Of a stretch of DNA of 64,000 bases, positions 45,001 through 48,000 are shown piece after piece. Made by a program: the position numbers. Each line of letters starts with the position of its first letter. The stretch's first letter is position 1. The DNA lies in assembly GCF_003334335.1 (NCBI RefSeq), contig NZ_QOWQ01000001.1; one strand, 5' to 3'. The DNA comes from Escherichia coli. GTDB lineage: Bacteria; Pseudomonadota; Gammaproteobacteria; Enterobacterales; Enterobacteriaceae.

Positions 45001-48000
45001 ATGTATAAAGTGTTCACTGCATTATTCTGGTTTATTCTTCCTGTAACGAAATAATCTGGCTTGAATCTGCTCAAGAATGAATTTTGAGATATGTGATCAT
45101 TACAAAAATTTGTCGCAGCCATCGGATAGGTATAGAGACCATCGATTTTTTTATTTGAAATGATTTGCACTAATTCCTGATTAAGTATTAATGGATCCAG
45201 TGTATTCAATGAAGTAGTGAAAGGGAATATAGCTATGGAATAGTCTGAAGTATTATCTTCATTAATTTTAGTTTTGAAAACCTGCCCGCTGAAACGATAA
45301 CCTTTCCGGTAGATTGTTTCTATGCAACGATCATAGCCAATTTTTTCAAAAATGCAGCGCAAAGAATAGATACATCTTGTCAGGGACTCGTCACTAACAA
45401 TAATATTTTTCCATACTGATTCGATGATCATATCTTTCAGTACAACATGACCAGCGGATTCAAGTAATACTATTAATACACCTAACTCTTTCTGTGGAAT
45501 ATAAACTTGCTCATTTCCTTGAGTAAGAATTCCATCTTCCGTGAGCGTTAATCCCTCAAGAAAATGATATGAGAATTTATTTTCTAAGTCCATTAGTTAA
45601 CCTCTATGAAAAAATTGGTTTCTTGCATCCTGCTTAAGCAATAGAAATTATGGCTATTCATATTTATGTGTCATTAACGCTACAGGAAATTACATTTGAC
45701 ATATCTATGGTTGTGTTCACTAATTTATCTTAGGAATTCAGTGATGTAATCTGAAATAGCCTTATTCAATTTTGATAAAGTAGATTGTTCTCTAACGCAT
45801 TGAAAAATAATGATTTATAGTATGCTCTTAACTGTTTTAAGATGCTGATTTAAGAAAACATAAGAGGTGCTGGTTATAGTGGTTAACTGCACTATAACCA
45901 GCAAATTTAACCAAATGATTGTAATGCTTAGCCATTATCTTCTGAATTATCGTTTAAGAGTTCAATATATGCCTGCGCTTTACTCTTAACACTATCATCC
46001 TCACAATTGTTAATAATGTGATAGAAACATTGCATTGCGTTATCGATATTTTTAGCCCCAATCTGACATTGACCCATACGATAAATAACTGAATAGTCAT
46101 CATACGGGAAGTAATTGTAACTTAGTTTGTAAAGGTCATATGCTTGTTGATATTTCTTTTTGGGCTGACATACTGATGCAAAATCTTTTAGATACTCATG
46201 ATTTTCGAACGCATAAATGCACAAGAATTTATAATAAATTTCTGCGTCCGTTATATTACCCTTTTCATGGTAGTCGAATGCATATGCATATATTCTATCA
46301 AGGATATCAGGAGTTAAACCATGTAGTAATGCCAGATTTTCTCCTTTCGATAATGCGTGTTTTAGTTGATTTGCCCATTCATCACTATTATTGAATATTT
46401 CAATTGTTTCTGTGCTCATAATATTCCTCTGTGATGTGTCTCGTGATGCCAAATTATTATTGATTGACTCATTGATATTTTTATATTTATCTTTTTTAAA
46501 TTATGAGTTTTAAGCTTGCATTGCTTATGGTATATTTTTCATTATTGGTAAAAGTACTGTTCACTACAAACTAATAACATCATTAGTTGTTTTACTAATA
46601 TTCACCTTATTAGTTATCTTAATTACGACATTACATAAATGCCTTAATGTGTATGACCTGGATTCATAGTATCAATTGCCATTTTTTCAATGAAAATTAA
46701 AAAGGGGATTTTTGAGAAGGGTAGAATGTCGTTTGTTTTTTTCTTTATTATGTCTGGTGACGCGGGGGGATAGAACGTCTGTGCATATAGTAGTGAATTT
46801 ATTCAGGTCTACATTATTCTCTATTTTGGTCAGTTTTATGAGTTCATTTACAGCCATACTCATTAAATCATCTGTTATCGAAAATTTATATATGCTCATA
46901 GCAGATAATATTGCTTGCTGAATTATCTCTTCAGAAATATCCGCTATCTTTATTGACAAATCATGTGTTAGATATTTTCCTCCAAGAGATTCTTGTTCAA
47001 TATAATTTAAACCAGACCCCATTGTGATTTTAACTGGATTAACGGATTTCTCTTCATTTTTCTTATTTTTGTTCTCCTGATCAGGAACTAATGGTTGCAG
47101 TGGTAGGCTATTATTAATATTTCGTGGCTTCATTTTACATTTCTCTCATTTGATTAGAGCAAAATCCGAATTCGCAGCTTCTGATAATGTCAAATATCAC
47201 CTTATGGAGACGTTACGTAGAATGACTATATTTGTTATCGGCACATTAGGGGTATTAATTTTAGTATTGATGGAAGGTGATTATTGAACAGTAACATCGA
47301 GTCACGGTAAAAATGTGAGGTATACAATGGACATTGAATTTTCGCAGATTCATGAAATGGTCTATATGCATGATATTGTAAATTCGGACTCGAAAAAGAA
47401 ACCAAGGATTCCGTTAAAAAAATTCCTTAATGCTGAGAATGTTCTCACGCAAACAACATCATGGACATTAAATTCAAGATATGTGAATGTTAATTCTGTC
47501 AATAAAGTCAACGTAAAGAGTAAAGTTAAAAACAGTTATATCTCACGATCTGTCAATGATGAGTTTAGTTTAACAGATGATGAAATCAATTCTTTTAAAG
47601 AAACGTTAGTCCTTTCCTCTATTGATTCACTGAGTAAACTGGTTCTTAATAATCCTCTTTCTGTATTGTTTACATCGACTGTACGAAGGAATAATAATCG
47701 AGCTAAGATGAATGTCGAGTTCGACTCATGGATTTGCACCAGATGTTGTTGATACATGATATTTTACATTGCAAGGAGATGTCTAAAATGAAAGATGTTG
47801 ATCAAATCTTTGATGCTTTAGACTGCCATATACTGCGAGAATATTTAATTTTATTGTTTTATGATTAACGAGGTTCCATCTTTTTGTTATCTATTTTAGT
47901 TTACCTTGCACAATGCATTATTGCTCTGTTACCAATGCTCAAAATAAAAGCATGCTTACCTTGCTTTAGTATATTATAGCTTACACTTTTTTCTGGAAAG

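What the first reader, a model, noticed from the sequence alone, without database searches (positions are those of the whole stretch)
47788..47868. 26-codon ORF with a strong ribosome-binding site between yqeK and yqeJ
AAGGAG lies 7-8 nt upstream of ATG 47788, which opens MKDVDQIFDALDCHILREYLILLFYD. Signals this clean on so short an ORF are often real small-protein genes; it may correspond to the K-12 small protein yqeL.
Basis: partly seen in the sequence, partly recalled or inferred. Interest (0 to 1): 0.3.

Follow-up and report, generated by a model that had tools for sequence, protein, structure and literature searches.

The report
Known E. coli small gene yqeL
The 26-codon reading frame is the already annotated E. 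coli K-12 small-protein gene yqeL; comparison across strains shows its peptide sequence changes as fast as silent DNA, so it looks like a young, probably dispensable gene, not a hidden important one.

Summary
The ORF is real and sits exactly where stated (47788..47868, + strand). Its DNA and protein are identical to yqeL (b4683) of E. coli K-12 MG1655, which lies between yqeK and yqeJ. One detail is off: AAGGAG (47773-47778) lies 9 nt from the ATG, not 7-8.

- **Chance:** one AAGGAG+ATG+>=26-codon ORF per 64 kb is about the random expectation (0.97).
- **Distribution:** yqeL sits in a 31-37% GC, H-NS-silenced island. It belongs to a ~2.1-kb ygeG-ygeF-yqeK-yqeL module that is absent from about a third of complete E. 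coli genomes and from E. whittamii.
- **Evolution:** the peptide shows no purifying selection. dN/dS is about 1.05, against 0.06-0.26 for yqeK and yqeJ. A divergent haplotype is only 11/24 identical, with net charge changing from -4 to +4. The strong SD is not conserved.
- **What is conserved:** only the ATG, the first four codons, a hydrophobic tail and an open frame of 23-26 codons.
- **Essentiality:** the published TraDIS "essential" call is most likely an H-NS occlusion artefact.

Best reading: a translated but young, effectively neutral small ORF. Function is unknown.

The parts
47788..47868 (+). yqeL coding sequence (26 codons plus TAA)
   Evidence: Identical to MG1655 yqeL b4683. PGAP calls it as a hypothetical protein in all 39 full-length E. 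coli genomes sampled.
47773..47778 (+). Shine-Dalgarno AAGGAG, 9 nt upstream of the ATG
   Evidence: Read from the sequence. Duplex energy with the 16S tail is -8.5 kcal/mol, top 1% of ATGs in the window. It weakens to -4.1 and -3.9 in two other lineages.
47327..47752 (+). yqeK, an orphan gene 35 nt upstream on the same strand; probable co-transcription partner
   Evidence: Annotation. No terminator lies between yqeK and yqeL. yqeK and yqeL are gained or lost together. YqeK relatives are found only in E. coli and match no Pfam or NCBIfam family.
47669..47698 (+). sigma-70-like site TTTACA-18-AATAAT inside the yqeK 3' end; candidate yqeL promoter (weak evidence)
   Evidence: Consensus scan scored 10 of 12, but such sites are not enriched over shuffles. 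An in vitro RpoD-holoenzyme SELEX peak was reported in the yqeK-yqeL spacer (PMC3946193).
47728..47787 (+). in-frame upstream extension (ATGs at 47728 and 47779) that some gene callers use to give a 46-aa product
   Evidence: The SD pairing is poor. ATG 47779 is ATA in the B2-type allele. ATG 47728 is TTG in the divergent haplotype, where I read an in-frame TAG 15 nt upstream of the ATG from the upstream sequence printed.
47901..48383 (-). yqeJ, the convergent neighbour; its stop codon lies 32 nt beyond the yqeL stop
   Evidence: Homology with E. whittamii and Escherichia sp. E1V33 ends at this gene's stop codon.

Best explanation
This is yqeL (b4683), an annotated 26-residue small-protein gene of E. 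coli K-12. It lies 35 nt downstream of the orphan gene yqeK in an AT-rich, H-NS-silenced island next to the ETT2 remnant. Most likely it is transcribed with yqeK, or from a weak promoter in the yqeK 3' end, when silencing allows (inferred). In K-12-type strains the strong AAGGAG recruits ribosomes to ATG 47788. The product is a short, soluble, acidic peptide with a hydrophobic tail (properties computed; translation itself is recalled from the literature, not shown here). The peptide sequence is not under purifying selection. It therefore behaves as an evolutionarily young, effectively neutral translated ORF (a proto-gene), not a conserved functional protein. Any role it has does not depend on most of its residues. 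It is not essential.
For: Identity. Island context: 31-37% GC, and the fragment was used as an H-NS-bound silenced domain in PMC12460168. Transcription: RNA polymerase bound in vitro in the yqeK-yqeL spacer, and no terminator or stable structure lies between yqeK and yqeL. Neutral evolution, K-12 versus B2-type allele: 5 nonsynonymous and 1 synonymous change, dN 0.082, dN/dS 1.05. The comparison values are yqeK 0.12-0.26 and yqeJ 0.06-0.10, and the nonsynonymous density differs with Fisher p = 0.0025. The changes are radical (I7N, D12Y, C13W, R17Q, E18A). Divergent haplotype: 11 of 24 residues identical, against YqeK 81%, YgeG 85% and YqeJ 94%. Differences fall 8/6/3 by codon position, and net charge goes from -4 to +4. 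Population sample: 7 nonsynonymous and 2 synonymous polymorphisms in 63 metagenome copies. A nonsense allele (stop after residue 19) occurs on 23 contigs. SD strength is not conserved. Dispensability: the locus is absent from about 1,780-1,820 of 5,426 complete E. coli genomes and from E. whittamii and Escherichia sp. E1V33.
Against: The same ATG, the first four codons (MKDV), a Y-[LI]-I-L-L tail and an open frame of 23-26 codons persist in all three lineages, including one at only 73% nucleotide identity. All 63 complete metagenome copies keep 26 codons. This could reflect weak selection for translation or for a loosely constrained peptide. However, simulated chance retention of the open frame is 0.64 and about 0.3 for the two comparisons, so it is not significant. 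The dN/dS estimate rests on only 6 substitutions. A high dN/dS can also come from diversifying selection on a functional peptide. I could not read the tagging or ribosome-profiling data, so translation is taken from memory of Hemm et al. 2008 (PMID 19121005), which is not held here.
Confidence: 0.6

Rival explanations
1. yqeL encodes a functional small regulatory protein, for example one acting on YqeK, YqeJ or the neighbouring ETT2 regulators. Its central residues would be under diversifying or co-evolutionary selection, while the MKDV head and hydrophobic tail carry the function.
For: The start codon, the first four codons, the hydrophobic C-terminal motif and the ORF length are retained in three lineages. 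An SD-like purine tract is present in all three. yqeL always travels with yqeK.
Against: dN equals the neighbours' dS, so nothing exceeds neutrality. The charge reversal from -4 to +4 and 54% residue replacement make a conserved binding surface hard to sustain. A nonsense allele circulates. The conserved tail is low-complexity AT-rich DNA. No family, defence-system or structural match was found.
Confidence: 0.2
2. The act of translating yqeL matters, not the peptide. Ribosomes on the yqeK 3' UTR would affect yqeK mRNA stability or Rho-dependent termination before transcription runs antisense into the convergent yqeJ-yqeI genes.
For: This would explain conservation of the initiation region and an open frame without conservation of the amino acids. 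The ORF fills most of the 148-nt gap between the convergent genes, and no intrinsic terminator is present.
Against: No direct evidence was found. Open-frame retention is not statistically significant. SD strength varies widely between lineages. A 65-nt insertion and an IS1 insertion are tolerated next to the ORF.
Confidence: 0.1
3. yqeL is a chance ORF that is not meaningfully translated, and the annotation is a false positive.
For: The SD+ATG+ORF signal occurs at the random expectation of about one per window. Evolution is neutral. The island is transcriptionally silenced. No ribosome-profiling or proteomic mention was found in the searchable literature.
Against: From memory, the gene name was assigned after a chromosomally SPA-tagged product was detected by immunoblot (Hemm et al. 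2008; not readable here). The K-12 SD is in the top 1%. EcoCyc/RefSeq, UniProt and PGAP all keep the gene.
Confidence: 0.1

Closest known systems
E. coli K-12 YqeL (b4683; UniProt C1P613, 'uncharacterized protein YqeL')
   Same: The 26-aa sequence is identical, the DNA is identical over 1,548 nt, and the position and strand between yqeK and yqeJ are the same. The UniProt accession is as printed in PMC8229198.
   Different: Nothing differs; it is the same gene.
Small proteins (16-50 aa) of E. coli found by RBS models and conservation (Hemm/Storz/Rudd set, e.g. MgtS, AcrZ, YohP)
   Same: A short ORF with a canonical SD, found in an intergenic gap. The gene name comes from that survey (recalled from memory).
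   Different: Many of that set are single-pass membrane proteins conserved across enterobacteria. YqeL has no hydrophobic stretch of membrane-spanning length. It was found only in E. coli-type sequences. It shows no purifying selection.
De novo or proto-genes: young lineage-restricted translated ORFs in AT-rich, horizontally acquired, H-NS-silenced DNA
   Same: Narrow distribution, dN/dS about 1, variable SD, and location in a silenced island next to another orphan gene.
   Different: De novo origin is not shown. No ORF-free ancestral sequence was recovered, because the species that lack yqeL lack the whole 2.1-kb module.

Membership tests
E. coli K-12 yqeL (b4683) | Identical or near-identical 26-aa product | tested here: met
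   Translations of the window ORF and of MG1655 b4683 are identical. UniRef names the exact sequence YQEL_ECOLI.
E. coli K-12 yqeL (b4683) | Position between yqeK and yqeJ, on the same strand as yqeK | tested here: met
   MG1655 and PGAP annotations. There is an exact 1,548-nt match to MG1655.
Experimentally validated translated small protein | Canonical SD at functional spacing plus a start codon | tested here: met
   AAGGAG lies 9 nt from the ATG, with a pairing energy of -8.5 kcal/mol, top 1%.
Experimentally validated translated small protein | Tagged product detected, or a ribosome-profiling initiation peak | not testable with these tools
   Hemm 2008 and 2010 are not held. The supplements searched carried no yqeL data. 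The tagging evidence is recalled only.
Conserved functional protein-coding gene | Purifying selection on the amino-acid sequence (dN/dS well below 1; third positions most variable) | tested here: not met
   dN/dS is 1.05, against 0.06-0.26 for the neighbours. Differences fall 8/6/3 by codon position. The divergent haplotype is 11/24 identical.
Small membrane protein or type I toxin | Hydrophobic segment long enough to span a membrane (about 18-20 residues) | tested here: not met
   The best 19-residue Kyte-Doolittle mean is 0.72-1.14, and the hydrophobic tail is only about 7 residues.
Type I toxin-antitoxin | Overlapping antisense RNA gene | tested here: inconclusive
   There is no Rfam match and no stable antisense structure. 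One promoter-like site on the minus strand (47785->47756) is at chance frequency.
Leader peptide or attenuator uORF | Lies upstream of a regulated gene on the same strand, with alternative terminator/antiterminator structures | tested here: not met
   The next gene, yqeJ, is convergent. No terminator was found, and the fold is no better than shuffles, z = +0.66.
Essential gene (TraDIS call, PMC5821084) | Indispensable and therefore present in all strains | tested here: not met
   The locus is absent from about a third of 5,426 complete E. coli genomes. A nonsense allele occurs on 23 contigs. The same list calls the pseudogene ygeF essential. H-NS occlusion of transposition is documented (PMC3632133).

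The most novel reading that the evidence does not exclude
yqeL is a caught-in-the-act proto-gene: a translated 23-26-codon ORF in an H-NS-silenced island. Its start site and open frame are maintained while its residues drift neutrally, including a charge reversal. Its strong Shine-Dalgarno is present only in K-12/O157-type strains. That would make it a tractable natural model for how small genes are born, or for a peptide-independent role of translation between convergent genes.
Probability: 0.3. Interest if true: 0.35.

Novelty: already known. Interest (0 to 1): 0.1.

Why it matters
The gene itself is already in every K-12 annotation, so the finding adds nothing new there. Two by-products are of modest use.

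First, yqeL has been carried forward as an "essential" E. coli protein and even as a candidate drug target (PMC5821084, PMC8229198). The data here argue strongly that this is an artefact: the locus is absent from a third of strains, a nonsense allele circulates, a neighbouring pseudogene is also called essential, and the region is H-NS bound.

Second, the neutral substitution pattern flags YqeL as a probable young or non-functional small ORF. This is a caution against equating detectable translation with function.

Tried and rejected
- **RNA element instead of a gene:** there was no Rfam hit at E <= 1 over 5 kb. Neither strand folds better than shuffles, and the gap holds no intrinsic terminator. 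Rejected.
- **Longer 46-aa or 29-aa product from upstream ATGs:** SD pairing is poor and those starts are lost in other lineages. Rejected in favour of ATG 47788.
- **Membrane protein or type I toxin:** the hydrophobic stretch is too short. Rejected.
- **Leader peptide:** the downstream gene is convergent. Rejected.
- **Phage, defence or plasmid origin:** PADLOC gave nothing, PHROGs only E = 0.095, and the PDB only E = 1.5. The only "plasmid" hits are 4.8-4.9 Mb records, which are mislabelled chromosomes.
- **Homologues outside Escherichia:** YqeK relatives are E. coli only. The YqeJ genome scan found two other Escherichia species that lack yqeL. The metagenome pattern scan returned only E. 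coli-type alleles.
- **IS1 insertion as a natural knockout:** it lies in the gap after the stop codon, so it gives no information.
- **Literature:** Hemm 2008 and 2010, Storz 2014 and the EcoSal review are not held. My recalled id for Fontaine 2011 pointed to an unrelated paper. The "b4683" search returned only irrelevant papers.

Full report
**Observation.** The window carries ATG at 47788 followed by 25 sense codons and TAA (47866-47868). The product is MKDVDQIFDALDCHILREYLILLFYD. Predicted pairing with the 16S rRNA tail is -8.5 kcal/mol, in the top 1% of the 2,421 ATGs in the window. The combined signal is not beyond chance on its own. AAGGAG followed by ATG at 4-11 nt and an ORF of at least 26 codons occurs four times in the window, three times at large genes. 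First-order Markov random sequences yield 0.97 +/- 0.99 such cases.

**Identity.** The 1.1 kb around the ORF matches 3,644 of 5,426 complete E. coli genomes, always on the chromosome. The curated MG1655 record annotates yqeL (b4683, "uncharacterized protein YqeL") at 2989819..2989899, between yqeJ and yqeK. Its translation is identical to the window ORF. The window equals MG1655 over 1,548 nt. UniRef names the exact sequence YQEL_ECOLI. PGAP annotates the same 81-nt CDS as a hypothetical protein in all 39 full-length genomes sampled across the identity range. From memory, the gene was found by Hemm, Paul, Schneider, Storz and Rudd (2008, PMID 19121005) using RBS models and conservation, and was named after a chromosomally SPA-tagged product was detected. 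I could not read that paper or its 2010 follow-up here, so this point is recalled, not verified.

**Context.** The local gene order is:
- ygeH (-), ygeG (-) and the ygeF pseudogene (-);
- yqeK (+, 47327..47752) and yqeL (+);
- yqeJ (-, 47901..48383), yqeI (-) and yqeH (-).

The island is 31-37% GC, against 46-51% beyond about 51 kb. This very fragment was used as an H-NS-bound silenced domain in PMC12460168. A genomic SELEX study lists an in vitro RpoD-holoenzyme binding site in the yqeK-yqeL spacer, oriented toward yqeL, with no consensus promoter assigned (PMC3946193). The scan finds a TTTACA-18-AATAAT site at 47669-47698, but promoter-like sites are not enriched over shuffles. No intrinsic terminator lies in the yqeK-yqeJ gap. 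There is no Rfam match, and neither strand folds better than shuffled controls (z = +0.66 and +0.97). An RNA-element reading has no support.

**Distribution.** YqeK is an orphan. All named relatives are E. coli and none carries a Pfam or NCBIfam domain. A scan of one genome per species with YqeJ found only Escherichia sp. E1V33 and E. whittamii, at 71% identity. In both, yqeJ is followed directly by ygeH. Homology to the window stops at 47894-47900, the yqeJ stop codon, and resumes at about 45770. So ygeG-ygeF-yqeK-yqeL form one ~2.1-kb insertion/deletion module, and yqeL travels with yqeK. A metagenome scan used a 32-specified-base pattern built from the columns shared by all known lineages. 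It returned 64 hits, all E. coli-type alleles. The two "plasmid" hits are 4.8-4.9 Mb records, that is, mislabelled chromosomes.

**Evolution of the ORF.** Three main protein alleles exist:
- the K-12 form;
- I7N, found in O157 and O104 and the commonest in metagenomes;
- I7N/D12Y/C13W/R17Q/E18A, here called B2-type for convenience (the phylogroup was not checked); it is carried by the genomes sampled from the 613 in the 90-95% identity band.

Between K-12 and the B2-type allele the ORF differs at 7.4% of sites, against 2.3-3.1% for yqeK and yqeJ. There are 5 nonsynonymous changes and 1 synonymous change. dN is 0.082 and dN/dS is 1.05, whereas yqeK gives 0.12-0.26 and yqeJ 0.06-0.10. The excess nonsynonymous density is significant (Fisher p = 0.0025).

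In the most divergent yqeK haplotype (L011/L012) the same ATG opens MKDVVKKIYYLYCTIRLKYIILLL, which is 24 aa (23 aa in L012). It is 11/24 identical to K-12 YqeL, while YqeK, YgeG and YqeJ are 81%, 85% and 94% identical. Differences fall 8/6/3 at codon positions 1/2/3, the opposite of a constrained coding pattern. Net charge flips from -4 to +4. Population samples add 7 nonsynonymous and 2 synonymous polymorphisms. They also add a nonsense allele (stop after residue 19, on 23 contigs), an ATG-to-GVG... correction: an ATG-to-GTG start change, and several further missense variants.

The strong SD is not conserved. Pairing energy is -8.5 and -9.2 kcal/mol in the K-12 and O157 types, but -4.1 and -3.9 (about the 15th percentile) in the B2-type and divergent haplotypes. 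The 9-nt anti-SD used in that calculation may understate the GGTGAT match in the B2-type allele.

What is conserved is the ATG, the first four codons, a Y-[LI]-I-L-L tail and an open frame of 23-26 codons. Simulated chance retention of the open frame is 0.64 for 6 substitutions and about 0.3 for 20-25 substitutions. That conservation is suggestive, not significant.

**Essentiality claim.** A TraDIS study lists yqeL as essential by TraDIS only, together with ygeF, ygeG and ygeN from the same island (PMC5821084). A drug-target paper propagates this (PMC8229198). Four observations argue against it:
- ygeF is a frameshifted pseudogene.
- The locus is missing from about a third of complete genomes.
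- A nonsense allele circulates.
- Restricted transposon access in strongly H-NS-bound, AT-rich islands is a documented cause of false "required" calls (PMC3632133).

The essential call is therefore best explained as an H-NS occlusion and short-target artefact. This is an inference; insertion densities were not available to me.

**Mechanism and rivals.**
- **Best reading (confidence 0.6).** yqeL is a translated but young and effectively neutral small ORF. It would be expressed with or just downstream of yqeK when silencing is relieved. In K-12-type strains the strong SD drives initiation at ATG 47788, giving a soluble acidic peptide with a short hydrophobic tail. Its sequence is not maintained by selection.
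- **Functional peptide under diversifying selection (0.2).**
- **Peptide-independent role of translation between the convergent genes (0.1).**
- **Untranslated chance ORF (0.1).**

No family, defence-system, phage-family or solved-structure match was found for YqeL. The peptide is too short for the structure-prediction tool.

**Verdict.** Interest is low.

Noticed in passing
window 45771-47893 (ygeG, ygeF, yqeK, yqeL); L009 3484-4028, L010 3488-4014: The whole ygeG-ygeF-yqeK-yqeL block (~2.1 kb) is missing in E. whittamii and Escherichia sp. E1V33. There, yqeJ is followed by ygeH after about 540 nt of unrelated AT-rich DNA. The breakpoints sit at the yqeJ stop codon and about 125-180 nt upstream of ygeH.
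   Followed up: partly
window 46644-47133 (-), ygeF: ygeF is annotated as a frameshifted pseudogene in K-12 and other strains. Yet it is listed as essential by TraDIS together with ygeG, ygeN and yqeL, which points to an island-wide insertion-exclusion artefact and not to real essentiality.
   Followed up: partly
L011/L012 about 2921-3000 (between yqeK stop and yqeL): The divergent haplotype carries a 65-nt insertion between the yqeK stop and the yqeL start. Divergence is also very uneven: yqeJ is 96% nt identical to K-12, yqeK 86% and yqeL 73%. This suggests a recombination mosaic boundary near yqeL.
   Followed up: no
L014 870-1678 (equivalent to window 47869-47900): In at least two clinical strains (hits H9, H12) an IS1A element is inserted in the 32-nt gap between the yqeL and yqeJ stop codons. 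Both ORFs remain intact.
   Followed up: yes
L006 909-1331 (yqeJ of strain MSB1_8B); L013 3155-3466: yqeJ is shortened in some strains: 140 aa in MSB1_8B and a 103-aa call in GCA_900448305.1. So the neighbours of yqeL are also decaying in part of the population.
   Followed up: no
L007 849-1328 (O157:H7 yqeJ): O157:H7 yqeJ is 3 nt shorter than in K-12 and gave an apparent dN/dS near 1 in my ungapped comparison. This may be an alignment artefact of the indel and not relaxed selection.
   Followed up: no
protein cluster 4 (P0069-P0074): The 90%-identity cluster holding the 46-aa extended yqeL ORF also contains unrelated 138-377-aa JGI/IMG proteins, for example the GC-rich P0071. This looks like a clustering artefact in the collection.
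   Followed up: no
L-locus with peptide ...CHIPVSYTHLRAHETLA: In one metagenome contig the yqeL ORF runs into sequence that translates as PVSYTHLRAHE. From memory this is the signature of untrimmed Nextera adapter at a contig end, not a real allele.
   Followed up: no
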